IMG/VR virus record: IMGVR_UViG_3300032294_002877
Coordinates: 1-64,000 of that record
Length of the DNA stretch: 64,000 bases
Source of the DNA: a virus
Reading direction: 5' to 3' (one strand)
Positions within the stretch are counted from its first letter, which is position 1; the number at the start of each line of letters is the position of its first letter. The notes under the pieces were generated by a model. The model was not told the origin of the DNA, ran no database searches, and saw only the letters and a program-made list of their open reading frames with translations. Shown in pieces: positions 2,863 to 59,971 of the stretch. A program made the position numbers and the translations under genes.

Positions 2863-2891
2863 AAGACAGGCAGAAATGCTTGTCTTTTTTT
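2863..2891 (+). terminator. Rho-independent terminator
   Basis: AAGACAGGCA-GAAA-TGCTTGTCTT followed by a T run. Confidence 0.7.
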
Positions 2892-2932
2892 GTAGATATA
2901 GTATGATAGTATACGATACTAGAGGAGATACT

Positions 2933-4759
2933 ATGTGCGGAATTATAGGATACAAAGGTAGTAAAAAATGTTTATCTATCATATTGGACGGACTAAAAAG
3001 ATTAGAGTATCGAGGATACGATAGCGCCGGAGTAGCATGTATCATTCCTCCTAAGCTCATAACTTATAAGAGCGCGGGCTGTGTTAACGAACTAATCTAT
3101 AACTGGATAGATTTTGATTTACCGTCATATATTGGTATTGGTCATACTCGATGGGCTACTCATGGTCAGCCTTCTCAAAGAAATGCTCATCCTCATACTA
3201 CCATAGATGAGAGGGTTAGTATAGTACACAATGGCATTGTGGAAAATTATGCAGCGTTGCAGAAGGAGCTTGTGGATAAGGGATACCTATTCATATCAGA
3301 AACCGATACGGAGGTGTTGCTATATTTAATATACGACTATTTAATTAATAGCGATATTAGTTTATTCGAGGCGGTTAAGCTAGCGCTAGAAAGAGTTGTG
3401 GGCGCTTATGCTATAGCAGTATTGGATAGAAAAAGTCCGGAAACTATGGTTGTGGCCAGAAGAGGTAGTCCTTTGGTTATAGGAGTGGGTGATCCTGGAG
3501 AATATTATGTTTCTAGCGATCCTTTGGGAATAATAAATTATACTAATGATATAGTTTTTGTAGAAGATAATAGTGTTATAGAAATCGCTAATGAGTTAGT
3601 ATGTTATAATACGAGAGATAAAAACGTATCAGAGTGTAATGTATCTAAATTATATAACCAGATATATAATATTGAAAAGGGCGATTATGATCACTTTATG
3701 CTGAAAGAGATATATGAACAGCCTAAGGTTGTGGCTGACTGTTTGAGCGGACGATTGGACGGATATAGAATTAAACTAGGGGGCCTTATAGGTTATGAGA
3801 ACATTTTAAGTAATGCTGATCATATTACCATACTATCTTGCGGATCGTCTTGGCATGCTGCTCTTGTGGCTAAATATTATTTTGAGGAATTCTGTAATAT
3901 AAAAACTTCTGTAGAGTATGCTAGTGAATTTAGATATCGGAAACCTGTTATTAAAGAAGATGATATTATCATAGCCATATCTCAATCGGGCGAAACTGCT
4001 GATACTATAAGCGCTGTGGAATTAGCAAAATCTAAAGCAGCTACTGTTATAGGAGTATGCAATGTTGCTGATTCTTCTTTGGCAAGATTAACAGAGTGTG
4101 GTGTCTATTGTAGAGCCGGAACAGAGATAGGAGTAGCTAGCACCAAAGGTTTCGTGTCTCAGGTTGTGGTGCTGTTATTGATAGCATTATGGATAGAACA
4201 AAACGAAAGCTCTCATATGATAAGCGAATATCGAAAAGCTATTATAGACGATCTGAGAAGTCTTCCCGTAATTTTAGAACAAACGCTAAAACTAAATAAA
4301 AGTATTCGCTCCTTGGCCTCTAAGTTTTATAGGTCTAAGAATTGTCTTTATTTGGGCAGAGAATACAACTTTCCAATAGCTCTAGAGGGGGCTTTGAAAC
4401 TAAAAGAAATTAGCTATATTCATGCTGAAGGATATCCGGCGGCAGAGATGAAACACGGGCCTATTGCTTTGATAGATAAGAATATGCCGGTGGTGGTAAT
4501 ATCAAATAATAAAAAGCAATATGAAAAAATTGTAAATAATATTAAAGAGATACAGGCGAGACAAGGAAAAGTTATAGAGATTTATAGCGAGGATAGATTT
4601 TCGGGGGATTATGGATTACAAGTTCCAATGGTTGTGGATCCCCTAAGCCCAGTAGTGTCAAGTGTGGTATTACAGTTGTTCTCTTATTATTGCGCGGTTC
4701 TTGGCGGACACAATGTGGATAAGCCTAGAAATTTGGCAAAAAGTGTGACCGTGGAGTAG
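2933..4759 (+). CDS. glmS: Glutamine--fructose-6-phosphate aminotransferase
   Basis: N-terminal MCGIIG (catalytic Cys), GHTRWATHG, SQSGETADT and C-terminal NVDKPRNLAKSVTVE; GAGGAG RBS. Confidence 0.97.
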   Translation: MCGIIGYKGSKKCLSIILDGLKRLEYRGYDSAGVACIIPPKLITYKSAGCVNELIYNWIDFDLPSYIGIGHTRWATHGQPSQRNAHPHTTIDERVSIVHNGIVENYAALQKELVDKGYLFISETDTEVLLYLIYDYLINSDISLFEAVKLALERVVGAYAIAVLDRKSPETMVVARRGSPLVIGVGDPGEYYVSSDPLGIINYTNDIVFVEDNSVIEIANELVCYNTRDKNVSECNVSKLYNQIYNIEKGDYDHFMLKEIYEQPKVVADCLSGRLDGYRIKLGGLIGYENILSNADHITILSCGSSWHAALVAKYYFEEFCNIKTSVEYASEFRYRKPVIKEDDIIIAISQSGETADTISAVELAKSKAATVIGVCNVADSSLARLTECGVYCRAGTEIGVASTKGFVSQVVVLLLIALWIEQNESSHMISEYRKAIIDDLRSLPVILEQTLKLNKSIRSLASKFYRSKNCLYLGREYNFPIALEGALKLKEISYIHAEGYPAAEMKHGPIALIDKNMPVVVISNNKKQYEKIVNNIKEIQARQGKVIEIYSEDRFSGDYGLQVPMVVDPLSPVVSSVVLQLFSYYCAVLGGHNVDKPRNLAKSVTVE

Positions 4760-4828
4760 TCTTGATTTTTTTCCGACATGTTGTAGTATGAGCGAGCGTC
4801 ACCTGTCCGACCTGAATGGAATCAAAAA

Positions 4829-6394
4829 ATGCAAAAGTATGGATCGCTTAGTGTTGAAGGTTTAGAGTCTAAACGTTTATTATCAATAGCTCCTAATGAT
4901 TCTCAACTAAATAATCAGTGGGGATTAAATAGTATCTCGGCATATCAAGCATGGGATAGTTCGTCGGGATCTAAGAATGTGGTGGTGGCTATTATAGATT
5001 CTGGGGTGGATCTGGGCCATCCGGATTTAAAAGATAACCTGTGGACGAATCCTGGCGAGATTGCTAACGACGGTATCGATAACGATAACAACGGATACGT
5101 TGACGATATATACGGATGGGATTTTGCATATAACGATAACAATGTTCAAGACGGATACGGCCACGGAACTCATGTGGCTGGTATTATAGGGGCGGTTGGA
5201 AACAACTCTTTGGGTATGTCGGGGGTTAACTGGAACGTGAGTATGATGGTATTAAAGTTTATGGATGATAGTGGTGTGGGATATGGCGATTCTGTTATTA
5301 AAGCTATTGATTATATTTTAATGATGAAAAATACATATGGAATTAATATTGTGGCAGTAAATAATAGTTATGGGGGAACACCAGGATACTCGTCATTGAT
5401 GGATAATAGAATTCAATTACTCAATAATAGTAATGTAATGTTTGTGGCCGCTGCTGGTAATAGTGGGGCGGATAATGATTTGGTGCCAAGGTATCCGTCA
5501 AGTTACTCTGAAAATAATATTATTAGTGTGGGAGCACTAACTAGTACCGACTCTCTGGCAGGATTCTCTAATTATGGAATTACTAGTGTGGATCTGGCTG
5601 CTCCGGGAACTAGTATCTTATCAACATATAAGGGCGGAACTTATACTTATATGAGCGGTACTAGTATGGCCGCTCCTTTTGTAACAGGATCTGTGGCTTT
5701 ATTAAATTCTGCTAAGCCAAATACATCTATGAATGTTATTAAAGATATAATCTTGAGTACCGCTGATAAGATTGATAGTTTAGCAGGAAAGGTTCTGTGT
5801 GGCGGTAAATTGAATTTGGGGGCGGCGATGGCCAAATTAATGGGGGTGTCTTATATCGCTAATAGTATTCCTAATGGATATGTTAGTAATATTACGTTAA
5901 GAAATGTTTATGGATATGCTAGTGATCCTGATGGGGGCGGATCGGTTAGTGTGAAGTTAACTGTGGATGGAAATGATTACTGGTATAGTAACACGGATGC
6001 TAACGGAAACTTTGTTTTTAATATTGAGACCATAGGTTATGGATATCATTCTTTAAAAGTGTGGGCAAAAGATAATCAAAGCGGACAGTGGAGCGTAGTA
6101 GGAGAAGGAGCTGTGAATGTTCCGTATCCCGAAATGAGTGTGAATCGATTGAATATTAGAGGAACATCAGGACGAGCATATAGCGCGGTATGTGGTGACT
6201 CTCCGGTAATTGTTAGAGTGCTGGTCAATGGGCGTTTGGTAGCGAATAGATGGGCGAATATTAGAAACCATGAATTCAATATAGGATTCAGTAGAAGCTG
6301 GTTTCGACGAGGAACAAATGATGTAAGGTTAGAAATCTATGATCCGATTGCGAAACAGATTACCTTGATGCGAGTGACAAGACTAAGGAAATAG
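4829..6394 (+). CDS. S8 subtilisin-like serine protease with planctomycete-type N-terminal motif
   Basis: Catalytic triad motifs IIDSG, HGTHVAG and GTSMAAP; oxyanion AAAGN; N-terminus SLSVEGLESKRLLS. Confidence 0.93.
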   Translation: MQKYGSLSVEGLESKRLLSIAPNDSQLNNQWGLNSISAYQAWDSSSGSKNVVVAIIDSGVDLGHPDLKDNLWTNPGEIANDGIDNDNNGYVDDIYGWDFAYNDNNVQDGYGHGTHVAGIIGAVGNNSLGMSGVNWNVSMMVLKFMDDSGVGYGDSVIKAIDYILMMKNTYGINIVAVNNSYGGTPGYSSLMDNRIQLLNNSNVMFVAAAGNSGADNDLVPRYPSSYSENNIISVGALTSTDSLAGFSNYGITSVDLAAPGTSILSTYKGGTYTYMSGTSMAAPFVTGSVALLNSAKPNTSMNVIKDIILSTADKIDSLAGKVLCGGKLNLGAAMAKLMGVSYIANSIPNGYVSNITLRNVYGYASDPDGGGSVSVKLTVDGNDYWYSNTDANGNFVFNIETIGYGYHSLKVWAKDNQSGQWSVVGEGAVNVPYPEMSVNRLNIRGTSGRAYSAVCGDSPVIVRVLVNGRLVANRWANIRNHEFNIGFSRSWFRRGTNDVRLEIYDPIAKQITLMRVTRLRK

Positions 6395-13477: not shown

Positions 13478-13984
13478 ATGCCTAACTGGTGCCTGAATAG
13501 ATTGGTTGTTTCTCATAGTGATTCTAGTATGCTTGACCGTTTTATAAAAGCATATAATAGGGGTACTGTTTGTAATGAGTTTCTGCCAGAGCCAAAAGAC
13601 CTTGACCAAGATGACGATATGGGGCCTAATGGTTGGTGGACTTGGAGAATTGAAAACTGGGGAACCAAATGGGACATTGGTGCTGATGAGGGGACTGATA
13701 GGGAAGAATGGCATGGTCGGAAGGCTCAAATTGTAAATAATGAAGTTGTTTGTTCGTTTGACTCTGCTTGGGCTCCTCCTATTGGTTTGTATAAGGAGTT
13801 GGTTCTGCAAGGGTTTAGGGTTGCTGCATCATACTTTGAGCCGGGTATGAGTTTCTGTGGCGAATGGATCGACGGCACTGATAACTATATCGAATACGGT
13901 AATAACAAGAATCTAATTACTAAACAGATTTGGGGGGACTACAATCTCACAGAGTTTTTTGCTGACGATGAAGTAGAAGCCTAA
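13478..13984 (+). CDS. DUF1281/YubB-like ferredoxin-fold protein
   Basis: MPNWCxN start, WRIENWGTKWD and FDSAWAPP motifs. Confidence 0.7.
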   Translation: MPNWCLNRLVVSHSDSSMLDRFIKAYNRGTVCNEFLPEPKDLDQDDDMGPNGWWTWRIENWGTKWDIGADEGTDREEWHGRKAQIVNNEVVCSFDSAWAPPIGLYKELVLQGFRVAASYFEPGMSFCGEWIDGTDNYIEYGNNKNLITKQIWGDYNLTEFFADDEVEA

Positions 13985-13995
13985 TAGGTTCGCTC

Positions 13996-14073
13996 TAAGT
14001 TCTTGATACCAAAGGACTTAGGGCAAACCCGCGCCGCCCGGCTCGACGTAAGTGCTTGGTAGCAAAAGAGTTG
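13996..14073. repeat. Paired 25-bp IHF-like palindrome element, copy 8
   Basis: Halves at 13996-14020 and 14049-14073. The left half contains TATCAAGAACTTA on the minus strand, an exact WATCAANNNNTTR match. Confidence 0.85.
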
Positions 14074-14138
14074 CATCAAAAAAATATTTTTTCAAGAAAC
14101 CCTATTGACAAGCCGATAATAGAGTGTAGAATGATGGA

Positions 14139-14455
14139 GTAAGACAAAACAATATGCGTGGGTCCAAGCGCACGGACTAGATTGGGATAACCTGTACGAT
14201 AAACCCTTACCAGCGATTGCTGTTTGGGTTGCCTAACGGGGTTATACGTTGGGATAGTATACCAGTCTATGGGGGATCGCGTCCTCACCACGCTCCATAC
14301 AACCAGTAACCGTCACCAAGAGCCAGACTAACCGGAACATGATGCTAGCAGTTCATCCGGTTACAGGGAGGTTTCCGTGGGCGGTTTCCATCCGATCCTG
14401 ACAAGGGACAATCGTATGGTCTATAGGAATCGGGGCGTAAAAGATTCCGCTGGTT
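14139..14455 (+). ncRNA. Candidate structured ncRNA, about 310 nt
   Basis: Own promoter (TTGACA 14105 / TAGAAT 14127), no plus-strand ORF, several helices including TAGATTGG/CCAGTCTA, CCTAACG/CGTTGGG, TAACCGGA/TCCGGTTA and GGAATC/GATTCC. Confidence 0.5.
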
Positions 14456-14509
14456 TTTCTTATTGACTTGCCGATAAAGAATGGTATAATAGTGGAATAG
14501 GAGAGAAAA

Positions 14510-14740
14510 ATGACCGTTAACGAACTTATTGAGCAGTTGAAGAATTATCCGTCTGATATGCGTGTGCTTGCTCTTGGTTATGAGGGTGGGTTTGACGATA
14601 TCAATCTGAAAACGGATGATATTGTATTCAATGTGAATAATAAAGATACCTGGTATATGGGTTCTCATGAGACTGTTGATATGTGTGGAGAGTATGGTAA
14701 TAGTGGTGAGAAGTGTTTGATTGTTATAAGGGCTAAATAA
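14510..14740 (+). CDS. Hypothetical phage protein
   Basis: AGGAG RBS; promoter at 14463-14490; MTVNELIEQLKNYP start. Confidence 0.7.
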   Translation: MTVNELIEQLKNYPSDMRVLALGYEGGFDDINLKTDDIVFNVNNKDTWYMGSHETVDMCGEYGNSGEKCLIVIRAK

Positions 14741-14997
14741 TGGAATGGCTTAGTTTTTTTGGTTATCGTCGCCCTATCAACGGTCAGAAAGTTTATTACT
14801 TTGGGCCATATATTGGTGTGTGGCAGGGGAGGTATGAGATTCATAGGGATGATCCTGTGAGTGAACATATTCTTATTTGTGAGGAAACTCCGGGGGTTGT
14901 AGATCGTATGGATGCTCCGTGGTGGATGCCATATGAGGGACAACCAAAGCCACAACGACCAGAAACTGACTATCCAAAGGATTACCCACATGGCTAA
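14740..14997 (+). CDS. Hypothetical protein
   Basis: Overlaps the upstream stop (TAATG). Confidence 0.6.
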   Translation: MEWLSFFGYRRPINGQKVYYFGPYIGVWQGRYEIHRDDPVSEHILICEETPGVVDRMDAPWWMPYEGQPKPQRPETDYPKDYPHG

Positions 14998-16485: not shown

Positions 16486-16857
16486 ATGATCAAGTTGGAA
16501 CTGAGTGTTCGTGAGGCTATGAATCTGGCGACGAACTGCCACCTCGATATCTATGAGCGGATCGTAAACGCTTTCGAGGTTGCGTTGGGTGTTAACCAGA
16601 ATAAGATGGTGACGATCACCAGAGGTATGACTCTCGACAATCGTATTGGTTGCATCAAGGCCATTCGACTCCATACTGGTTGGGGATTGAAGGAGGCAAA
16701 GGAGTGGACGGATTTTCTGGTGGGTGGCTGGAAGTACGACAAGTGGAATCCTGCTCCTACTGGTAGGACGCAGAGTATCACTCTCAAGACTCCCGAAGCG
16801 GCTGAAAATCTCCTCCGCGATCTTGTTGGTTTGGGTTGCGAAGGCTATCTTTCGTAA
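16486..16857 (+). CDS. Protein with ribosomal bL12 (L7/L12) C-terminal-domain-like motif
   Basis: RIGCIKAIRLHTGWGLKEAKEWTD resembles the bL12 CTD motif KIxVIKxVRxxTGLGLKEAKxLVE. Confidence 0.7.
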   Translation: MIKLELSVREAMNLATNCHLDIYERIVNAFEVALGVNQNKMVTITRGMTLDNRIGCIKAIRLHTGWGLKEAKEWTDFLVGGWKYDKWNPAPTGRTQSITLKTPEAAENLLRDLVGLGCEGYLS

Positions 16858-17389: not shown

Positions 17390-17399
17390 CAATTCAAAC

Positions 17400-17644
17400 T
17401 GGACTATGCCAGTATAAAGAGATTTTAGGCATAGTGCGGCGGGATTCGTCCCGCGTAATGAGAGTTCGTTGCAGACCTAGGTGCAGCCTAGAGAGGGATT
17501 TAACCAATCCTATAAGACGGGTGGTTCCGTCGAAAGTTGTTGCTCTCTAGAGTTTTATTACTAATATAGATGGTACAACAACGCCAGCAAACCGATAGAC
17601 GCTGACGAGCCCCGGCGGTAGCACCGTCCGGGCTATCGGTCTAT
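17400..17644 (+). ncRNA. Candidate multi-hairpin structured RNA directly upstream of the tRNA cluster
   Basis: Helices ACTATGCC/GGCATAGT, GCGGGA/TCCCGC, CTAGAGAG/CTCTCTAG enclosing two hairpins, ACCGATAG/CTATCGGT, and GTTGTTG/CAACAAC (possible pseudoknot). Confidence 0.55.
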
Positions 17645-46691: not shown

Positions 46692-46765
46692 GGGGCGTTG
46701 CAGCCGGTAGTTGCACATACTCTTATAAGGTATTCAAAAGGTAGGTTCGACTCCTACACGCCCTA
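46692..46765 (+). tRNA. tRNA-Ile(TAT)
   Basis: GGGGCGT/ACGCCCT; ATACT-CTTATAA-GGTAT; GGTTCGACTCC. Confidence 0.85.
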
Positions 46766-46785: not shown

Positions 46786-47139
46786 GGGGGTATAATAGAT
46801 TCGACTACATAATGGAGATTATATTAGCAAGTAGTGGTTGATCGACAGGCCACTATAAAAGTCGATTAAACGCTTTAACTGGCGAAACTCAGTTAGCCCT
46901 TGCTGCTTAATTAAATAACAGCAACAATCTTAGGAAGCGATGAAGGTAGCGTCCAAAAGATTGTCGTAAAATCCTTCGGCTCCTGTTAGTGGTGACGGTT
47001 AACAGGCTAAGATGTGTCACTAGGATTGATGACTGTTGTTCATTCTTTAATCAAATCCGAATGTTTATGAATGAACTAAACTTGTAGAAGATATTTTCAA
47101 ATTTATGCTAGGACACGGGTGCAAATCCCGTTACCTCCA
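46786..47139 (+). ncRNA. ssrA: tmRNA, tag peptide (A)GETQLALAA
   Basis: 5' GGGGGTA...GATTCGAC; tag ORF ggc gaa act cag tta gcc ctt gct gct taa (46881-46910); 3' T arm and TACCTCC-A. Confidence 0.93.
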
Positions 47140-47279
47140 CTTATGAGTTTCTGGAAAAAGGTATTCAAGAAGTATAAGAAAGAAAAGAAACAAGATTTAG
47201 AAAGTCTTGTAGAGGATAAGTATTTTCAAAAATTACAAAAGAAACTGAGCAAACATAACACTAAACATAAAAAGAAAAA

Positions 47280-49163
47280 ATGATAGATAAAATTAAGGCG
47301 ATATTATCTTCACAAGAGTGTGAGTATTTTAGTATTGCTTTTCTTTATCATTGTATAGTTATAGGTTTGTTAGCCTTTTGTTTTGTTGCTATTGATAGGC
47401 CAGAAAAAGTATTTAGTATTATCATTCAGAATGATGATGTTGTAATTGATACTGAGACTTTTACAGAACCGGAGATCACCAACTTCGATCCTACACAAAC
47501 ATCTTTTGAAGATTCTCCAATCGTTCCGTCTAATGAATCTTCACTATCTGTAGACAATAAAATTGACGTTCCTTCTACTGTGGAATTATCCAATTTGGAA
47601 ATTAGCGAGCCGGATTTTATAGGATCAAACTCTGGAGATATTTTAGCGGGTGTTGGGAAGTTGATCGGCAAAGGAATATCGGCAGAACAAAATACTGGTG
47701 GTGCGTTAGATAGATTAACGGCAGAAATTGTTAGCAATGCGTCCGATAAAAATTTGAATGTGTTATGGCTATTAGACGCCTCAATTAGTTTATCTCATCA
47801 ACGACAAGATATTAGAGAAAGATTCGACAAGATTCTATCCGAGATTAGTTTTAGCCAAAATACAAGTCATACCATTAACCATGGTATTTTTAGTTTTGGT
47901 CTTTCTCATAATAAGTTGTGTGATTTTACTAGCGATGCTAATGTTCTCAAGGACAGTTTTGCATCCATAGTTTTAGATACTTCTGGCACAGAGAATATCT
48001 TTCAAACTATTCTTGAATTATCTAATACTTATGGCAAAAAAGATCCACGATTGATGATCGTGGTTTTCACTGATGAAATAGGTGATGATGTAGATTATCT
48101 AGACAGAGCGGCAGTATCATCCCGTAAAAAAGGAACTATGGTTTATGTTGTAGGAAGCCCAGCACCTTTTGGCAAAAGCAAAACACAATTCAAGTACGTC
48201 GATCCCGATCCTAATTATGATCAAAGCGAAAAGTGGGTAGAGATTCAGCAGGGGCCGGAAACCTTATACCCAATGATTCTAGACATTCATGCCTTACCAA
48301 TTGACGAACAAACACTAGACAGCGGGTATGGGCCGTTTGCTTTGTGTTCATTGTGTTCAGAAACCGGAGGAATATTTTTCAGCGTTCATCCTAACAGATC
48401 GTCATCGGTTCTATCTAAGAAAGATATTAGTCCACTAGCCTCTAACATCTCTAAGTTTTTTGATACTGATGTAATGAGAAGTTACAGCCCAGATTATAGA
48501 TCATTTGCATTACAGGCCAAGGAAAATCAAACCCACAGAATAAAGAACGCTTTAGTACAAGCAGCATCTACGAAACTAGATATTCGTGGAGAACAAACGC
48601 TAAAGTTTAATGCTTTTACAGAAGGGGATTTTGTAAACGAATTAGGCAAAGCACAAAGATTCTCTGCTAAAATAGAACCTAAAATTAATCAGATACTAAC
48701 CACGCTACAGAATACAGAGAAAGAATTTGATACTCTAAAGGACAAAAGATGGAAAGCGTCATATGCTTTGGCTATGGGAAGGATATTAGCCACAAAAACA
48801 AGAATTGAATTTTATAACCAAGTATTAGCAGAAGCAAAAACTGGTCTAAAAAAGAAAGACCAAAAGAGTAATGTTTGGGTATTAAATCATACGGATAAGT
48901 TTGCTACTACTAATAGTCAACTTAATAAAAACTACAAACAAGCACGGTATTATCTAAATTATGTAATTGATACATATCCAGATACTCCTTGGGCCTATAT
49001 TGCTAACGAGGAAATAAAAACTCCTTTTGGATACGAATGGACTGAGAGTTATATTGAGCCACCAAAAATGGGTGGCGGAGGTAATAACAATCCTAATCCT
49101 CCAAAGGATGATACAATCAAAAAATTACAACCTAAACCACAAAGAAAGATAGAAAAAATATGA
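47280..49163 (+). CDS. Membrane-anchored von Willebrand factor A domain protein (planctomycete type)
   Basis: N-terminal TM; MIDAS DASIS, SGTE and VVFTDE motifs. Confidence 0.8.
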   Translation: MIDKIKAILSSQECEYFSIAFLYHCIVIGLLAFCFVAIDRPEKVFSIIIQNDDVVIDTETFTEPEITNFDPTQTSFEDSPIVPSNESSLSVDNKIDVPSTVELSNLEISEPDFIGSNSGDILAGVGKLIGKGISAEQNTGGALDRLTAEIVSNASDKNLNVLWLLDASISLSHQRQDIRERFDKILSEISFSQNTSHTINHGIFSFGLSHNKLCDFTSDANVLKDSFASIVLDTSGTENIFQTILELSNTYGKKDPRLMIVVFTDEIGDDVDYLDRAAVSSRKKGTMVYVVGSPAPFGKSKTQFKYVDPDPNYDQSEKWVEIQQGPETLYPMILDIHALPIDEQTLDSGYGPFALCSLCSETGGIFFSVHPNRSSSVLSKKDISPLASNISKFFDTDVMRSYSPDYRSFALQAKENQTHRIKNALVQAASTKLDIRGEQTLKFNAFTEGDFVNELGKAQRFSAKIEPKINQILTTLQNTEKEFDTLKDKRWKASYALAMGRILATKTRIEFYNQVLAEAKTGLKKKDQKSNVWVLNHTDKFATTNSQLNKNYKQARYYLNYVIDTYPDTPWAYIANEEIKTPFGYEWTESYIEPPKMGGGGNNNPNPPKDDTIKKLQPKPQRKIEKI

Positions 49164-50404
49164 ATCGCAGACATTTCCTTAGCCATCTCGCTGGTGCTGC
49201 CGCATTATCATCTCCAGCAATCGACTTTACTAATACTATTCTAGCAAATGCTAACGATCTTAAAAAGGAACATAAGAGTGCTATTCTTTTGTGGATGGGT
49301 GGTGGCCCAAGCACAATGGATATATGGGATTTAAAGCCCGGTACTCCTACTGGTGGCCCTTTTAAACCTATTAGCACAAGTGCTGACGGTATTCAAATCT
49401 GCGAACATATGCCACTCATGGCAAAACAAATGCATCATATGAATATTGTGCGTAGTATGAGTACCAGAGAAGCAGATCATATGAGAGGTCGCTATTATAT
49501 GCACACAGGATATGTTCCAACACCAACAATTGAACATCCTAGTTATGGTGCTGTCGTTGCTCATGAATTAATTAGCGATGTTCCACAACTAGAAATTCCA
49601 CCATTTATTAGTGTTGGTGGAGGTAGTGTTGGGCCAGGATTTTTAGGTATGACTTATGCTCCTTTCGTTGTTAATTCAAATGGAAATGTTCGTGATTTAA
49701 GTATGGGTGTAGACGATGCTATTCTAAATCAAAGACTACAAATGCTTAGAACAATTGAGGATAGATTCATATCTGAAAAACGAGGATCAACATCAATAGA
49801 CCATGATAAAGTCTTAAACAAGACACTAAAACTTATGACCAGCAAACAAATGGACGCTTTAAAGGTAGCCAAAGAACCAGAAGAAGTTCGTGAGCGTTAT
49901 GGTAATACTGGTTTTGGGCGAGGTTGTCTAATGGCCCGCAGATTAGTAGAGACAGGTGTTCCATTTATCGAGGTTGATTTAGGTGGCTGGGATAATCATG
50001 CTAATATTTTTCCAACATTACAGGACACTAAACTTCCAGAATTAGACAAGGCTATGAGTGCTTTGATTAGTGATCTACATGATCGTGGATTGCTAGAAAC
50101 TACTGCTATTATATGGATGGGTGAATTTAGTCGCACACCAAATATTAATGGCAATACTGGTCGTGATCATTGGGCTAGAAGTTGGAGTGTAGTCGTTGGT
50201 GGTGCTGGTTTTAATAAGGGTATTGTTGTTGGCGAAACAAGCAGCGACGGTAAAGAAGTAATCACCGAACCATATAGTTCACAAGACTTAATGGCTAGTG
50301 TTTTAAAATCCTTAGATATTTCACTGGAAACAACATTTACCTCAAAAAATGGTCGTCCAATGAAGATAGCAAATTCCGGCAAAGTTATCAAAGAATTATT
50401 CTGA
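49160..50404 (+). CDS. DUF1501 family protein with Tat signal
   Basis: MNRRHFL; LWMGGGPSTMDIWDLKP, GCLMARRLVETGVPF, GGWDNH, GEFSRTP and GRDHW motifs. Confidence 0.92.
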   Translation: MNRRHFLSHLAGAAALSSPAIDFTNTILANANDLKKEHKSAILLWMGGGPSTMDIWDLKPGTPTGGPFKPISTSADGIQICEHMPLMAKQMHHMNIVRSMSTREADHMRGRYYMHTGYVPTPTIEHPSYGAVVAHELISDVPQLEIPPFISVGGGSVGPGFLGMTYAPFVVNSNGNVRDLSMGVDDAILNQRLQMLRTIEDRFISEKRGSTSIDHDKVLNKTLKLMTSKQMDALKVAKEPEEVRERYGNTGFGRGCLMARRLVETGVPFIEVDLGGWDNHANIFPTLQDTKLPELDKAMSALISDLHDRGLLETTAIIWMGEFSRTPNINGNTGRDHWARSWSVVVGGAGFNKGIVVGETSSDGKEVITEPYSSQDLMASVLKSLDISLETTFTSKNGRPMKIANSGKVIKELF

Positions 50405-50748
50405 TGAGAAAAATTTGTTCGTACTGTGGTAAAAGAAAGAATAACAAGTCTTTCCCTAAACATAGTATGTATAAAGATAATCTTGATAGCAGATGTAGGG
50501 ATTGTGTTAGACAACAATCAAGAGTAAGATTCTCTTTACATAAAAAAGCACCAGATAAACCAGAATTATGTGAATGTTGTAAAAAGAAACCATTAAAATG
50601 GTGTCTTGATCATGATCATTCTAATAATAGTTTTAGAGGATGGATTTGTGAAAGATGTAATACTGGATTAGGTAAACTGGGAGATAATTTAGAAGGTATA
50701 GTTAATGCTATGAACTACTTATTATCGAGAAAAAATGATCCTAATTAA
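50404..50748 (+). CDS. Endonuclease VII-like His-Me nuclease
   Basis: CECC...LDHDH...RGWICERCNTGLGKLGD. Confidence 0.85.
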   Translation: MRKICSYCGKRKNNKSFPKHSMYKDNLDSRCRDCVRQQSRVRFSLHKKAPDKPELCECCKKKPLKWCLDHDHSNNSFRGWICERCNTGLGKLGDNLEGIVNAMNYLLSRKNDPN

Positions 50749-50941
50749 AAAATGGTATAAACATTTAAAAGATAATAATATGACGTATTTAGAGCATATG
50801 GTTTTTGCCCTGTCTCATGGTTTATTGTGTCTACTTGGTGGTTTCTATCTTATAGTACATGGAATTTTACCTTGTTTTTTCCAATCTGCTGGCAGCGATC
50901 TGGTTAATAGACTGAGCGAAAAATTCAAGAACCGTCAGTAG
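50735..50941 (+). CDS. Small hypothetical protein (TYLEH motif)
   Basis: HLKDNNMTYLEHMVFAL...VHGILP motif. Confidence 0.6.
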   Translation: MILIKKWYKHLKDNNMTYLEHMVFALSHGLLCLLGGFYLIVHGILPCFFQSAGSDLVNRLSEKFKNRQ

Positions 50942-51007
50942 AATTACCGATACTTGACAAGGACACTGGCGTATGATAGAATACGCTAAACACAGGAGAC
51001 TATTTGG

Positions 51008-52321
51008 ATGACTCACGATTTTGATTATGTTGAGGGCATGGTTCGTGATCTTCGTGCTACCAGTAGCACTAAAGATAAAGAAGGAATTATTCTAGACTAT
51101 TGTGGACACAACAGTCCCGCAGCATCTTTTACTAAGAAAGTTCTTCTCTATACTTATCATCCGTTGTGGCAATATAATGTCACCAGCGACAATCTCAAGA
51201 AGAAGAATCATCTTGTAGCAAGAAAGAACGAGTACAAGAATTTCTTTGATTTACTTGATGCTCTAAAGAGTCGTAAAATTACGGGGCACGACGCTATTGC
51301 TGCTGTGAATAGTTTTATTGAACATTATTCTATTTACGAAGAACTCATTCATTGTATTATTGACAAGGATTTGAAAACCCGTGCTGGTGATAAAATCATT
51401 AATAAGGCTATTCCAGATCATATTCCAGAGTTTAGTGTTGCACTTGCGGATAAGTATGAGCCTAAACTCGTAGATTGGAAGGATGGGTGGTATGTTAGTA
51501 GAAAAATTGACGGGGCAAGATGTATTGCAGTGGTTGATAACTCAGGAGATGCAACTTTCTTTTCTAGGACTGGCAAAATGTTTGATACTCTTGGTGTTGT
51601 GGCTGGCGGCATCAAGTCTCTTGGAATATCTAATGTCGTGCTTGATGGAGAGTTGTGTTTGGTTGACGAAGATGGTAATGAAGATTTTCAGGGGATTATG
51701 AAACAATTGAAAAAGAAGGATCATACAATTCCTAATCCTTCATTTAAGATTTTTGATATGATTAGTCATGATGAGTTTTATAGCAAGAAAGGAGAGCATA
51801 ATCGACCATATTCTATTAGACTTGCAAATCTTAAAGAGTCTATGAAAAATAATGAATGTCCTTGTCTTACTGTGTTAGAGCAAGATAAGATTAGAGATGA
51901 CAATCATTTTGCCGAATGGACTAAACGAGGTAATGATTATGGTTGGGAGGGTGTTATGCTAAGAGCAGACGAACCGTATAAAGGCAAGCGTAGTAAAGAC
52001 CTACTCAAAGTTAAAAAGTTTTTTGACGATGAATATGAGGTTATTGATACCGAAATGGGGCCGTTTCGATATGTTAAGAATGGTGCTGAATCTGAGGAAA
52101 CAATGCTTAGTTGTGTAACCATCAAGCATAAAAACCATCTTGTGCGAGTCGGTAGCGGTTTCACTATTGAACAACGTCAAGAGTTTTATCAAAACCCCAA
52201 AAAGATTCTTGGTAAAGTAATTTTAGTGCAGTATTTTGAGGAAACTAAGAACCAAGACGGAGGTATCTCTTTAAGATTTCCTACATTTAAATATCTTTAT
52301 GGAGAACATAGGGATACTTAA
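51008..52321 (+). CDS. ATP-dependent DNA ligase
   Basis: KIDGAR (motif I), LDGEL, EGVMLR, LLKVK, VGSGF and LRFP. Confidence 0.95.
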   Translation: MTHDFDYVEGMVRDLRATSSTKDKEGIILDYCGHNSPAASFTKKVLLYTYHPLWQYNVTSDNLKKKNHLVARKNEYKNFFDLLDALKSRKITGHDAIAAVNSFIEHYSIYEELIHCIIDKDLKTRAGDKIINKAIPDHIPEFSVALADKYEPKLVDWKDGWYVSRKIDGARCIAVVDNSGDATFFSRTGKMFDTLGVVAGGIKSLGISNVVLDGELCLVDEDGNEDFQGIMKQLKKKDHTIPNPSFKIFDMISHDEFYSKKGEHNRPYSIRLANLKESMKNNECPCLTVLEQDKIRDDNHFAEWTKRGNDYGWEGVMLRADEPYKGKRSKDLLKVKKFFDDEYEVIDTEMGPFRYVKNGAESEETMLSCVTIKHKNHLVRVGSGFTIEQRQEFYQNPKKILGKVILVQYFEETKNQDGGISLRFPTFKYLYGEHRDT

Positions 52322-52374
52322 TTCTTCAAAGTATTGGTTACATTTGGTGTATCTTTAATATAAGGAGATACCGA

Positions 52375-52980
52375 ATGAAACAATATAAAATATGCGGAAA
52401 ATGCAATAAAAAACATAAAGAATGGACAAAAGGAACTCAATGTAATAATTGTAGATCCTTAATGAAACAAAAGTCTTATCAAAATAATAAACAAAAATAT
52501 CTAGACAGAGTTAAAAATTATTATCAAGAAAACAAAAAAGAAAAATTAAAATACGCTAAACAATATAGAATCAAAAATAAAGATAAATATAACGAATATT
52601 TTTCTATTAATGCTGAAAAAATCTATAAGCAAAGAGCAAAAAGAGAAAAACAAAAAAGAAATACAGATATAGGTTTTAGAATAGAGTCAAATCTACGCAA
52701 AAGATTATATAGAGCAATAACTACAAATAAAAAATATCAATCAACATTAGAATACTTGGGTTGTTCGATAGAAGAATTAAAAATACACTTAGAAAAACAA
52801 TTTAAAAAAGGAATGACTTGGAATAACTATGGAAAATGGCATATAGATCACATTAAACCTTGTGCTAGTTTTGATCTAAGTTTAGAAACTGAACAAAAAA
52901 TATGTTTTCATTATAGCAATCTACAACCTTTATGGGCTATAGAGAATATTAAAAAAAGTAATAAGATCCCTAATTTGTAA
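52375..52980 (+). CDS. Free-standing HNH homing endonuclease-like protein
   Basis: WHIDHIKPC...FHYSNLQPLWAIENIKK; AT-rich insertion after the ligase. Confidence 0.85.
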   Translation: MKQYKICGKCNKKHKEWTKGTQCNNCRSLMKQKSYQNNKQKYLDRVKNYYQENKKEKLKYAKQYRIKNKDKYNEYFSINAEKIYKQRAKREKQKRNTDIGFRIESNLRKRLYRAITTNKKYQSTLEYLGCSIEELKIHLEKQFKKGMTWNNYGKWHIDHIKPCASFDLSLETEQKICFHYSNLQPLWAIENIKKSNKIPNL

Positions 52981-53376
52981 AGTCTTATATGTGCAGATAA
53001 GGAGAATATTATAATGATAAGAAAAGGAAAAGGAAAGAAAACCTTTAATAGAGAAAAAAGACTATTCTCAAATACTAAAAAGGGCAGAACTCCAACAGAG
53101 ACTCTGCACTTTAAGGTTATTAGTATGCGTACCAGAGATTTAAAAAACATAGTTCAAAATCCAGATACGACGGATTTACTCACCTTATCTTTTGCTAAAG
53201 AAGAATTAGATAGACGTAATTTTAATCAAAAAAATAAGATTGACACACAATCTAAAAGACACAAACTGAACAAAAAATTTCCAGAACATAAACATTTATT
53301 GCGTCGATCCGGCAAACGATGATTCAAGAAACAGGTCTTGACAAGCCGATACCAGTAGTGTAGAATTGTAGCACAC

Positions 53377-54096
53377 TTGGAGGAAAAAATGATTATTGAG
53401 AATACCGTGTCTGTTGAGCCTAAGAATACCACAATGAATAAGAGTAAGGCGGATCAGTTTTTTGAAACCTTTCCGCGTGATAAAGTTATTACATATAAGG
53501 AGTATTGGGAAAGTGTACGACCACAGAATACCGACGATATTTTCAGGCGTTATTTGTTTGCTTACTGCTCTGTACACACTACTTTTCAAGGTAATGTTAA
53601 GGGTTATCAAGCAATCAAGGATTTTAGTCAGTGGATTGATAACAAAGAAACCCTGAGAGAAAAACTACATAAGAGCGGCGTTGGCTTGCATAATAATCGC
53701 ACAAATTATATTTGGGATTTCAAGGATAAGTTTTGGGCTAATCCTAAAGATTTTTATCTTACCACCAAAAAGTATCATATCAAGAAACGTGATTCTATTG
53801 TAAATAAAATTAGCGGTATTGGTTTAGCAAAAGTTAGTTTCGCACTTGAGATGATTCATCCTAATGAGGCACGGGTATTGTGTGGTGATGTTCATCAACT
53901 TCGACTTTACGATATGGAACATCTGAAGTATAATAAATCACGCTCTGGTACAGATACTTATAAAAAGATGGAGCGTCATTGGGTGGTCAATTGTGCTAAA
54001 AATGGAGTACCATGTTATATTGCACGATGTATTTACTGGGACGCTTTGCAAGAAAAAGAAGATAGCCGATATTGGAGTTTTGTTCTAGAGAATTGA
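53377..54096 (+). CDS. HhH-family DNA glycosylase-like protein (OGG-like)
   Basis: ISGIGLAKVSFAL helix-hairpin-helix followed by DVHQLR. Confidence 0.6.
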   Translation: MEEKMIIENTVSVEPKNTTMNKSKADQFFETFPRDKVITYKEYWESVRPQNTDDIFRRYLFAYCSVHTTFQGNVKGYQAIKDFSQWIDNKETLREKLHKSGVGLHNNRTNYIWDFKDKFWANPKDFYLTTKKYHIKKRDSIVNKISGIGLAKVSFALEMIHPNEARVLCGDVHQLRLYDMEHLKYNKSRSGTDTYKKMERHWVVNCAKNGVPCYIARCIYWDALQEKEDSRYWSFVLEN

Positions 54097-54145
54097 CCAT
54101 ATTCGGTGTATATTAATTGGTTACAATAAAATAAAGGAAGTAATC

Positions 54146-55387
54146 ATGAAACATTCACGCCGAAAATTTACTCTAGGACTAACATCATTAGGTCTTACCG
54201 CTTTTTCTTCTAATATTGCTTTTAGTGTTGAAGAAAATATTCCCAAATGCGATCACAATAACAATAGCGTTATTTACTTGTTTTTAAGTGGTGGCCCAAC
54301 ACATATAGAAACTTTTAATCCAATCCCAAACGCTACATCAGATAGAAAATCTGTTATTGGCGACAGAGCAACAAAAACTCCGGGGTTTGGTATAGGTGGA
54401 TTATGGGAAAAAATATCAACAGTTTCGGATAAATTTTGTGTTGTGAATAGTTTTCATCATAGTGATCCTAACCATGAGAGTGCTGTTCATTGGATGATGA
54501 CCGGAGAAAGAAACGTACCAAATGCTGCACAGAAGTGGCCCAGTTTTGGTAGTGTAGTAGTTGGGCAGTATGGTACGAATATTGATTCTGGTTTGCCGAC
54601 ATACGTTAAACTAAATCCAATACAGCATGACGGTGCATCATGGATGGGTAGTAAATACATGGGTTATGGTGCTTCTGGAGAAGGCGTCAAAGATTTGATG
54701 CTGAAACAAAAAGATCGTTTTGAAAACAGAGCAAATATTCTAAAAACTCTGGATCATTCTCCGGTATTTAAAAGCAACGACACTGCTAGTAAAAACTGGA
54801 TAGAATTACGAAATCAAGCCATTAATGTTCTCTTGGGAACCGCCAACGAGGCTTTTCTAGTAGACAAAGATCCAGAATACGATACTTATAAAAAGGATCA
54901 ATTAGGTAAAGACTTACTAACAGCAATACGATTAGTCGAGCGTGGAGTAAAGTTTGTTACCATAAATTATGGTGGTTGGGATATGCATCAAAATATTAAT
55001 CAGGGCTTGAACAAACTAATTCCTCCATTAGATAATTATCTATATCATTATTTTAATTCAGCACAAAGAAGGGAGATAAATAAGAGGAATATGCTAGTGA
55101 TGACCGGGGATTTTGGACGAACCCCAAAGGTTAATAAAGATGCTGGCAGGGATCATTGGCCTCATCTGGTTCCCTTATTCATCGCCAGCGACAGTTATGA
55201 AATGGGAAGGGTGATCGGTAAGTCTGATTTAAACGCGGAGCGTCCAGACGTTGATCCATATGAACCAGAAGATTTAAAGTGGACTATCTTGAATCATATG
55301 GGAGTCAATAAAAACGCTAACTGGACTAGTATTGAGCAAAGACCTATGATATTTGTGAAAGACACTGCAAAAAATATCCTAGTCTAA
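54146..55387 (+). CDS. DUF1501 family protein with Tat signal (second copy)
   Basis: SRRKF; LFLSGGPTHIETF, AIRLVERGVKFV, GGWDMH, GDFGRTPKVN and GRDHWP motifs. Confidence 0.92.
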   Translation: MKHSRRKFTLGLTSLGLTAFSSNIAFSVEENIPKCDHNNNSVIYLFLSGGPTHIETFNPIPNATSDRKSVIGDRATKTPGFGIGGLWEKISTVSDKFCVVNSFHHSDPNHESAVHWMMTGERNVPNAAQKWPSFGSVVVGQYGTNIDSGLPTYVKLNPIQHDGASWMGSKYMGYGASGEGVKDLMLKQKDRFENRANILKTLDHSPVFKSNDTASKNWIELRNQAINVLLGTANEAFLVDKDPEYDTYKKDQLGKDLLTAIRLVERGVKFVTINYGGWDMHQNINQGLNKLIPPLDNYLYHYFNSAQRREINKRNMLVMTGDFGRTPKVNKDAGRDHWPHLVPLFIASDSYEMGRVIGKSDLNAERPDVDPYEPEDLKWTILNHMGVNKNANWTSIEQRPMIFVKDTAKNILV

Positions 55388-59651: not shown

Positions 59652-59971
59652 TGGCAAGTTTAGCACTAATGGTATCACTGATACTTTTTTGTGTTATATT
59701 TTCCGGCCCAATTGTTTTATTGTTAAGTAAATGTAGTTTTATTCCGAATTATATCGTTTATGTACTATCAATTATTACTATATTTTTTGGTGTTTGGTTT
59801 TTTCTTTTACCTATCGCGGGAATAAGATATTTTGGGGTAATATCTTCTTTGTTAGCATGGTTTGCTATTCAGAATAGGAGATCGGAAACCATTAAAGGTT
59901 GACAAGATGGTTTGCCGATGGTATACTTTGGAGATCACAGGAACGATTCACAGACTTTTTGGAGAAAAACG

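What the first reader, a model, noticed from the sequence alone, without database searches (positions are those of the whole stretch)
14105..14455. Promoter-driven, ORF-free structured RNA candidate of about 310 nt
Seen: a good TTGACA-16-TAGAAT promoter is followed by about 320 nt with no plus-strand ORF before the next promoter (14463), which is unusual in this gene-dense genome. The stretch has many helices. TAGATTGG/CCAGTCTA encloses AACCC..CAGC-GATT-GCTG..GGGTT and CCTAACG/CGTTGGG. Others are TAACCGGA/TCCGGTTA and GGAATC/GATTCC. It lacks RNase P, tmRNA, SRP and tRNA hallmarks. Inference: an unannotated phage ncRNA. Large phages are known to carry uncharacterised structured RNAs.
Basis: partly seen in the sequence, partly recalled or inferred. 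Interest (0 to 1): 0.72.

Follow-up and report, generated by a model that had tools for sequence, protein, structure and literature searches.

The report
Two tRNA-shaped phage RNA genes
This gene-free 350-base stretch of an uncultured 180-kb lake phage encodes two separately folding small RNAs behind one promoter, each with a tRNA-like four-armed core; they belong to uncatalogued RNA families shared by many related phages, and their job is unknown.

Summary

It is not one 310-nt RNA but two modules. Module A (14156-14297) is a four-way junction. Its long arm carries a bulge-to-loop pseudoknot. On 71 distinct homologues, 94.7% of cells pair and 31 of 44 pairs show compensatory changes, against 0 of 500 shuffles. 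Module B (14301-14455) is a second four-way junction with almost invariant closing helices and an invariant 11-nt loop (66 distinct homologues).

The two keep the order promoter, A, B in related lake-phage contigs. Other cassettes or tandem copies are sometimes inserted between them.

Neither module matches any Rfam 15 family, any cultured-phage record, or 185,579 prokaryote species genomes; the three MAG contigs that carry module A look like mis-binned phage DNA.

In both modules the closing helix plus the adjacent hairpin add up to 12-13 bp, as acceptor plus T arm do in a tRNA. I read them as processed, stable, tRNA-scaffolded RNAs, the same kind as T4 RNAC/RNAD and the T5 stable RNAs, but not homologous to them. 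Their function is unknown.

This scan has already reported the same families in other lake-phage genomes. The case is real and new to the databases searched, but it is not a first sighting.

The parts
14105..14132 (+). Sigma-70-type promoter (-35 at 14105-14110, -10 at 14127-14132); inferred transcription start near 14139-14141
   Evidence: Scores 11 of 12 consensus matches. A promoter-like motif lies within 400 nt upstream of 68 of 71 distinct module A copies, and 9-25 nt upstream in about 25 of them.
14140..14155 (+). Short leader with a degenerate copy of the CAAUACAAMC linker that precedes modules in related phages
   Evidence: Alignment A1. The base just before P1 is U in 65 of 69 homologues.
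14156..14297 (+). Module A, a four-way-junction RNA. P1 14156-61/14288-93. P2 hairpin 14162-77. P3 14178-85/14262-69 continuing as 14193-96/14258-61. Variable hairpin 14202-30. Hairpin P3b 14232-53. P4 hairpin 14270-87. Then U plus CCA at 14294-97.
   Evidence: Model R1 scores 149.9 bits on the window, with a single copy in the 180-kb genome. On 71 distinct sequences 94.7% of cells pair and 31 of 44 pairs show compensatory change, with 0 of 500 shuffles as high.
14187..14245 (+). Pseudoknot: the bulge at 14187-92 pairs with the P3b loop at 14240-45
   Evidence: 100% of cells pair. The central pair switches G-C (35 sequences) to C-G (29). An unguided mutual-information scan also recovered it.
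14295..14304 (+). Linker between the modules (CAAUACAAMC type)
   Evidence: Conserved at module borders in alignments A1 and A2. It is duplicated on both sides of inserted cassettes.
14301..14455 (+). Module B, a second four-way junction. P1 14301-07/14449-55. P2 14308-14/14380-86 enclosing hairpin 14329-36/14356-63. Variable P3 14388-14419. P4 14426-31/14443-48 with an invariant 11-nt loop at 14432-42.
   Evidence: Model R2 scores 145.3 bits, single copy in the genome. On 66 distinct sequences 99.3% of core cells pair. P1 and P2 are nearly invariant; four of five P4 pairs show compensatory change. The inner hairpins covary by eye between cassette types.
14463..14490 (+). Next promoter, serving the 76-aa gene at 14510-14740; not part of the RNA
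   Evidence: No terminator-like site is called between module B and this promoter.

Best explanation
The stretch is a small non-coding RNA operon. A strong sigma-70-type promoter transcribes two separately folding RNAs, A and B. Shown: both are conserved plus-strand RNA structures. A is a perfect four-way junction. Its long arm ends in a three-way junction that is locked by a six-base-pair pseudoknot between a bulge and a hairpin loop. B is a four-way junction with a sequence-invariant core and swappable outer hairpins. Inferred: in each module the terminal helix stacks on the neighbouring hairpin to imitate the acceptor/T-arm half of a tRNA. The host tRNA-maturation machinery would then cut the modules out of the precursor, with RNase P acting at the 5' side and 3' trimming in the conserved linker, and leave them as stable small RNAs. 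In this reading the tRNA-like frame is a processing and stability scaffold. The working parts are the pseudoknotted arm of A and the invariant core and loop of B, which would bind a protein or RNA partner still unknown.
For: Conservation: the region is 70-92% identical in about 45 related contigs, always on the plus strand.

Covariation in A: including the pseudoknot and a helix that a blind mutual-information scan found.

Covariation in B: its P4 helix.

Strand: abundant G-U pairs mark the plus strand as the RNA. Examples are 44 G-U at one P4 pair of A and 62 of 64 U-G at the inner end of B's P1.

Not coding.

Independent modules: other phages separate A and B by 70-374 nt of other cassettes, duplicate A in tandem (L089, L115), or carry a second short B (L119, L180).

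tRNA-like geometry, read directly from the sequence: P1 plus P4 is 6 + 6-7 bp in A and 7 + 5-6 bp in B. U precedes P1 in 65 of 69 copies of A. The window copy of A ends in U-CCA.

Model behaviour: in the T4 and T5 tRNA regions the best R1 hits are true tRNAs. The one alignment inspected (T5 tRNA-Pro) is aligned through acceptor stem and T arm, but only at 12-14 bits.

Context: related strings contain real and aberrant tRNA genes.
Against: There are no expression or processing data. Rfam tRNA and tmRNA models do not match even at E up to 10, and ARAGORN finds nothing here. In most copies of A the P4 loop has 5 nt and is not a T-loop. The junction has almost no linker bases, unlike a tRNA, so which helices stack is unknown. 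An in-register CCA occurs in only 5 of 68 copies. R1 does not hit the phage's own tRNAs. No terminator follows B, so the RNAs could stay part of a longer transcript. No partner has been identified, and the genome has no Ro60, CCA-adding enzyme or RtcB gene.
Confidence: 0.6

Rival explanations
1. The region is a cis-acting leader, either a riboswitch or a protein-binding operator, that controls the small genes downstream at 14510-14997.
For: Synteny: a homologue of the 85-aa protein lies within 1.7 kb downstream of B in 58 of 73 unbiased loci, and the 76-aa protein in 31 of 50. In some phages B runs directly into a ribosome-binding-site-like sequence with no promoter in between. The conserved unpaired junction bases of A look like a binding pocket.
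Against: In the window a full promoter (14463-14490) separates B from the gene. The distance to the genes ranges from 2 to about 1700 nt. Modules are duplicated, separated and mixed with tRNA genes. No alternative terminator or sequestering helix is visible. The synteny may only reflect the general collinearity of these genomes.
Confidence: 0.1
2. One or both modules are unrecognised self-cleaving ribozymes that cut the RNA string at the conserved linker.
For: The core of B is conserved in sequence rather than only in pairing, as catalytic cores are. A conserved linker flanks each module. A Pistol ribozyme heads a similar RNA string at 17398-17460, right after a linker-like motif.
Against: No ribozyme family matches, even at permissive thresholds. 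No candidate cleavage-site geometry could be derived. The linker is equally well explained as a nuclease site or as a recombination joint.
Confidence: 0.1
3. It is a DNA-level element such as an origin, an attachment site carrying a tRNA fragment, or a recombination hotspot. Alternatively it encodes small proteins.
For: A 71-aa minus-strand ORF spans 14076-14291. The modular shuffling implies frequent recombination at the linkers.
Against: The pairing depends on many G-U pairs, which would be C-A mismatches on the other strand. The minus-strand fold is no better than shuffled sequence. No frame is conserved and there is no codon periodicity.
Confidence: 0.02

Closest known systems
Phage T4 small stable RNAs RNAC and RNAD (species 1 and 2 RNAs; AF158101 70908-71171)
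   Same: Phage-encoded non-coding RNAs of about 120-140 nt that lie head to tail in one string with tRNA genes. RNAC ends in a T-arm-like hairpin next to a terminal helix. Their roles are still unknown (PMC3014915, PMC9697503). The phage here carries an rIIA-like gene, as many large lytic phages including T4 do.
   Different: There is no sequence or model similarity: R1 and R2 give only noise on RNAC and RNAD. The T4 RNAs follow the tRNA cluster and are classed as late RNAs. Here the pair has its own early-type promoter 3 kb upstream of the tRNA cluster. No pseudoknot has been described for the T4 RNAs.
Phage T5 stable RNAs (RNA1 and RNA2, annotated as tRNA-like; also RNAI, RNAIII, RNAIV, RNA2H; AY543070 30284-33083)
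   Same: Strings of adjacent stable RNAs of 100-170 nt with unknown function, some annotated as tRNA-like, interleaved with tRNA genes and promoters.
   Different: R1 and R2 do not match any of them. The only weak R1 hits in that region are genuine tRNA-Pro and tRNA-Ser genes.
tmRNA (tRNA-like domain plus long helix plus pseudoknot PK1)
   Same: The 5' and 3' ends pair, a hairpin sits next to the 3' strand, and a long helix replaces the anticodon arm and leads into a pseudoknot.
   Different: There is no tag reading frame. The third pair of P1 is G-C in 61 sequences and G-U in only 6. Module A has a closed D-like hairpin. No tmRNA model matches. The phage has a standard tmRNA elsewhere, at 46786-47142.
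tRNA-scaffolded or tRNA-punctuated RNAs (engineered tRNA scaffolds for RNA expression; gammaherpesvirus 68 tRNA-miRNA units; mitochondrial t-elements). Cited from general knowledge.
   Same: A tRNA-like frame recruits tRNA-processing enzymes to release and stabilise an attached functional RNA.
   Different: Those frames are recognisable tRNAs. Here the similarity is in geometry only, and processing is untested.

Membership tests
tRNA (Rfam RF00005) | Cloverleaf with a 7-nt anticodon loop, a T-loop and a D-loop, recognised by the covariance model or by ARAGORN | tested here: not met
   No RF00005 hit in 13950-14560 even at E up to 10. ARAGORN finds none there. The anticodon arm is replaced by a 12-bp arm with a pseudoknot.
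tRNA-like top half (geometry only) | Terminal helix plus adjacent hairpin stem spanning about 12 bp | tested here: met
   A has 6 + 6-7 bp and B has 7 + 5-6 bp, from the counted structures. R1 aligns T5 tRNA-Pro through exactly these two helices, but at only 13.8 bits.
tmRNA (RF00023 and permuted forms) | Covariance-model match, a tag reading frame after PK1, and a G3-U70 alanine identity pair | tested here: not met
   No hit. No tag reading frame was seen in either module. Pair 3 of P1 is G-C in 61 of 67 sequences.
RNase P RNA | P4 formed between the strand after P3 and the strand before the 3' half of P1, plus the conserved CR-I to CR-V blocks | tested here: not met
   No Rfam hit. The pseudoknot of A is nested inside P3, which is a different topology. 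A and B are separable units.
T4 RNAC/RNAD and the T5 stable RNAs, tested as homologues | Detectable sequence or structure similarity | tested here: not met
   R1 and R2, run without filters on both regions, give no match to these RNAs.
Y RNA / YrlA | A Ro60-binding terminal helix, and a Ro60 (TROVE) gene in the genome or neighbourhood | tested here: not met
   No Rfam hit. No TROVE domain in the 180-kb genome. Host genes were not testable.
Riboswitch or cis-regulatory leader | Sits in the 5' UTR of the regulated gene with an expression platform | tested here: inconclusive
   A separate promoter lies between B and the next gene in the window, but some relatives lack one. No expression platform was seen.
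Known self-cleaving ribozymes (Pistol, twister, hatchet, hammerhead, HDV-like and others) | Covariance-model match to the catalytic core | tested here: not met
   None matches in the region. The Pistol match at 17398-17460 shows that the search itself works.

The most novel reading that the evidence does not exclude
These would be natural tRNA-scaffolded effector RNAs. The phage borrows the upper half of a tRNA so that host enzymes excise and stabilise the RNA. It displays a pseudoknotted or otherwise variable 'head' in place of the anticodon. That head would capture a specific host factor early in infection, for example a tRNA-directed defence nuclease, a translation factor or an RNA-surveillance protein. 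The tandem paralogues and swapped outer hairpins seen in related phages would then be specificity variants produced by an arms race.
Probability: 0.2. Interest if true: 0.8.

Novelty: new variant of a known kind. Interest (0 to 1): 0.55.

Why it matters
Phage-encoded stable RNAs beside tRNA genes have been known since the 1970s in T4 and T5, and none has a function yet. Here the same kind of gene appears as two well-defined, strongly covarying families, each with more than 60 distinct natural sequences, a fixed order and a modular design. That gives a solid structural model and a natural set of variants for experiments. If the tRNA-like frame really is a processing scaffold for a binding domain, it would be a new way for phages to deploy small RNAs against their hosts. 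It would also be a natural counterpart of the engineered tRNA scaffolds used to express RNAs. The limits are that no function is shown, the hosts are uncultured, thousands of candidate phage RNA motifs have already been listed in bulk (PMC10690425), and this scan has met the family several times before.

Tried and rejected
- **Rfam 15.** Searched at gathering and at permissive thresholds. Nothing matched in the region. The three matches with E of 4-7 are to fungal, archaeal and human RNAs and are noise.
- **Cultured phages.** blastn against 50,697 phage records found no match for the window copy, for a high-scoring relative, or for the phage tmRNA.
- **Two-part patterns in prokaryote genomes.** B occurs in none of the 185,579 species genomes. 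A occurs in three MAG contigs that look like mis-binned phage DNA.
- **Single-sequence folding energy.** Not significant.
- **Coding readings.** Rejected.
- **RNase P RNA.** I considered it because two motifs resemble the P4 strands, and rejected it on topology.
- **Two-piece tmRNA and alanine identity.** Rejected.
- **Contact between a junction of A and the invariant loop of B (4 bp).** Both sides are invariant, and the one variant sequence does not compensate, so it is unsupported.
- **Mutual-information scan of B.** It showed only correlations between cassette types and no tertiary pair.
- **Partner genes in the phage genome.** No TROVE, CCA-adding enzyme or RtcB.
- **Flanking small proteins.** They have no Pfam family and only PHROGs of unknown function.
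- **Published catalogue.** The supplement of the 10,006-motif catalogue (PMC10690425) is not held, so I could not check whether these motifs are listed there.

Full report
**What is there.**
The window is the first 64 kb of a 180,460-bp IMG/VR virus record rated complete. It encodes an rIIA-like protein, eleven tRNAs, a tmRNA and a Pistol ribozyme.

At 14105-14132 there is a promoter with 11 of 12 consensus matches. The next one is at 14463-14490, in front of a 76-aa gene. Between them the plus strand has no ORF longer than 35 aa.

**Is it more than chance?**
The folding energy of the single sequence is unremarkable (z = -1.36). Comparison with relatives is decisive.

- I fetched relatives through the flanking proteins. 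About 45 related lake-phage contigs carry the stretch at 70-92% nucleotide identity, always on the plus strand.
- The similarity falls into two blocks. Some phages separate the blocks, duplicate them, or interleave them with other cassettes.
- I therefore treated them as module A (14156-14297) and module B (14301-14455).

**Module A.**
I aligned 33 sequences, built covariance model R1 and collected 94 matches, 71 of them distinct, from pattern-derived and protein-derived loci.

- A first model with a pseudoknot paired 94.1% of cells.
- A blind mutual-information scan recovered the pseudoknot. It also revealed two features I had missed: a 4-bp continuation of the long arm (14193-96 with 14258-61) and a closing pair of the last hairpin.
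- The refined model has 44 pairs. Of these, 94.7% of cells pair and 31 pairs show compensatory change. None of 500 shuffles reaches this, and slid controls pair only 35-42%.

The fold is a four-way junction with almost no unpaired linker:

- P1 (6 bp).
- A short hairpin, P2.
- A long arm, P3: 8 bp, then a 7-nt bulge, then 4 bp. It opens into a three-way junction holding a variable hairpin and a 7-bp hairpin.
- A hairpin, P4, next to the 3' strand of P1.

Six bases of the bulge pair with the loop of the 7-bp hairpin. All cells pair there, and the central pair switches between G-C (35 sequences) and C-G (29).

**Module B.**
Alignment A2 and model R2 gave 86 matches, 66 of them distinct.

- The core is P1 (7 bp), P2 (7 bp) and P4 (5-6 bp, with an invariant 11-nt loop). 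It pairs in 99.3% of cells.
- P1 and P2 hardly vary. Four of five P4 pairs show compensatory change.
- Different phages replace the hairpins inside P2 and at P3 with unrelated sequences, or lack them altogether.

B is therefore a conserved core with exchangeable outer arms.

**RNA rather than DNA or protein.**
Many positions are G-U pairs, which would be mismatches on the other strand. The minus strand folds no better than shuffled sequence. Only 13 of 61 homologues keep any frame open through A, and variation shows no three-base periodicity.

**Organisation.**
- A promoter-like motif lies within 400 nt upstream of 68 of 71 distinct A copies.
- B follows A with a 9-nt gap in 30 of 60 cases. 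In the rest it follows after 70-374 nt of other cassettes.
- Those cassettes include another recurrent roughly 95-nt module, real and aberrant tRNA genes, and tandem paralogues of A or B.
- A linker of the CAAUACAAMC type sits at the module borders.
- The window holds the minimal version: promoter, A, B. Each module occurs once in the genome.

**Comparison with known families.**
- Nothing in Rfam 15 matches.
- No cultured phage has similar DNA.
- B is absent from 185,579 prokaryote species genomes, and A occurs only on three MAG contigs that look like binned phage DNA.
- The closest known kind is the set of phage stable RNAs of unknown function next to tRNA genes: T4 RNAC and RNAD (PMC3014915, PMC9697503) and the T5 stable RNAs. 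R1 and R2 do not match them, so the resemblance is in kind, not in descent.
- The best R1 hits in those regions are genuine tRNAs. The one alignment I inspected, T5 tRNA-Pro, runs through acceptor stem and T arm. This gives weak, independent support to the tRNA-like geometry, in which P1 plus P4 spans 12-13 bp in both modules.
- Formal membership in tRNA, tmRNA, RNase P RNA or Y RNA fails (see the membership table).

**Mechanism.**
The transcription unit, the two folds and their conservation are shown. Excision by tRNA-processing enzymes and action in trans through the pseudoknotted arm and the invariant core are inferred.

- For this reading: U precedes P1 in 65 of 69 copies. The window copy ends in U-CCA. 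tRNA genes occur inside related strings.
- Against it: there are no expression data, most P4 loops are not T-loops, and no terminator follows B.
- Alternatives are a leader for the syntenic 76-aa and 85-aa genes or an unrecognised ribozyme. I rate each at about 0.1.

**Earlier findings of this scan.**
Earlier reports on other lake-phage genomes describe the same promoter-driven strings, the same linker and a tRNA-shaped RNA with a knotted arm. My analysis was done independently on this window and agrees with them. It adds the refined bulge-to-loop pseudoknot, the constant A-then-B order, and the direct tests against the T4 and T5 RNAs.

Noticed in passing
window 17390-17644: A Pistol ribozyme (Rfam, 52.5 bits) lies at 17398-17460. 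It comes right after a linker-like motif (CAAUUCAAAC at 17390) and is followed by about 180 nt of helix-rich sequence that runs into the tRNA-Arg/Asp/Tyr cluster. This looks like a second RNA string, headed by a ribozyme. Pistol also precedes the tRNA cluster in four related loci (L109, L089, L094, L083).
   Followed up: partly
window 46786-47142: Rfam calls a full-length tmRNA (101.5 bits), next to tRNA-Ile at 46692-46765. ARAGORN does not report it in the window, although it calls the homologue in L127 (tag GTNQLALAA).
   Followed up: no
window 13985-14104: The spacer between the upstream gene and the promoter holds one copy of the dispersed double-palindrome repeat that another first-stage note listed (14 copies between early gene modules). 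It lies outside the RNA.
   Followed up: no
L156:5950-6065, L152, L107:2395-2495 and about 20 other loci: A third recurrent module of about 95 nt (a hairpin plus a three-way junction) sits between the promoter and module A in many relatives. The window lacks it.
   Followed up: partly
L089:2846-2920; L111 and L112:2469-2546; L122:2150-2255; L086:2600-2730: Aberrant tRNA-like genes lie inside the related RNA strings. ARAGORN reports anticodons of four or two bases for some. Two RNAs have tRNA acceptor, D and T arms but a greatly enlarged anticodon region.
   Followed up: no
L119:2722-2812 (same contig as L180): A second, shorter copy of module B stands in tandem with the full one. It has different inner arms and no P3 hairpin. 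Module A is likewise duplicated in tandem in L089 and L115.
   Followed up: partly
L305, L306, L307: Three contigs filed under bacterial MAGs carry module A, and L305 also carries module B. The MAGs are an unclassified bacterium, a Cyclobacteriaceae bin and a Methylococcaceae bin. The contigs are probably phage DNA binned with bacterial genomes, so they are weak host evidence.
   Followed up: no
window 2876-6394, 16486-16857, 49160-55387, 59912-62662: Notable phage cargo: a GlmS-like amidotransferase/SIS protein, a subtilase, two DUF1501 proteins, a DNA ligase and an rIIA-like protein. There is also a 123-aa protein with a weak, sub-threshold match to the bL12 C-terminal domain (E = 1.2e-4).
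   Followed up: partly
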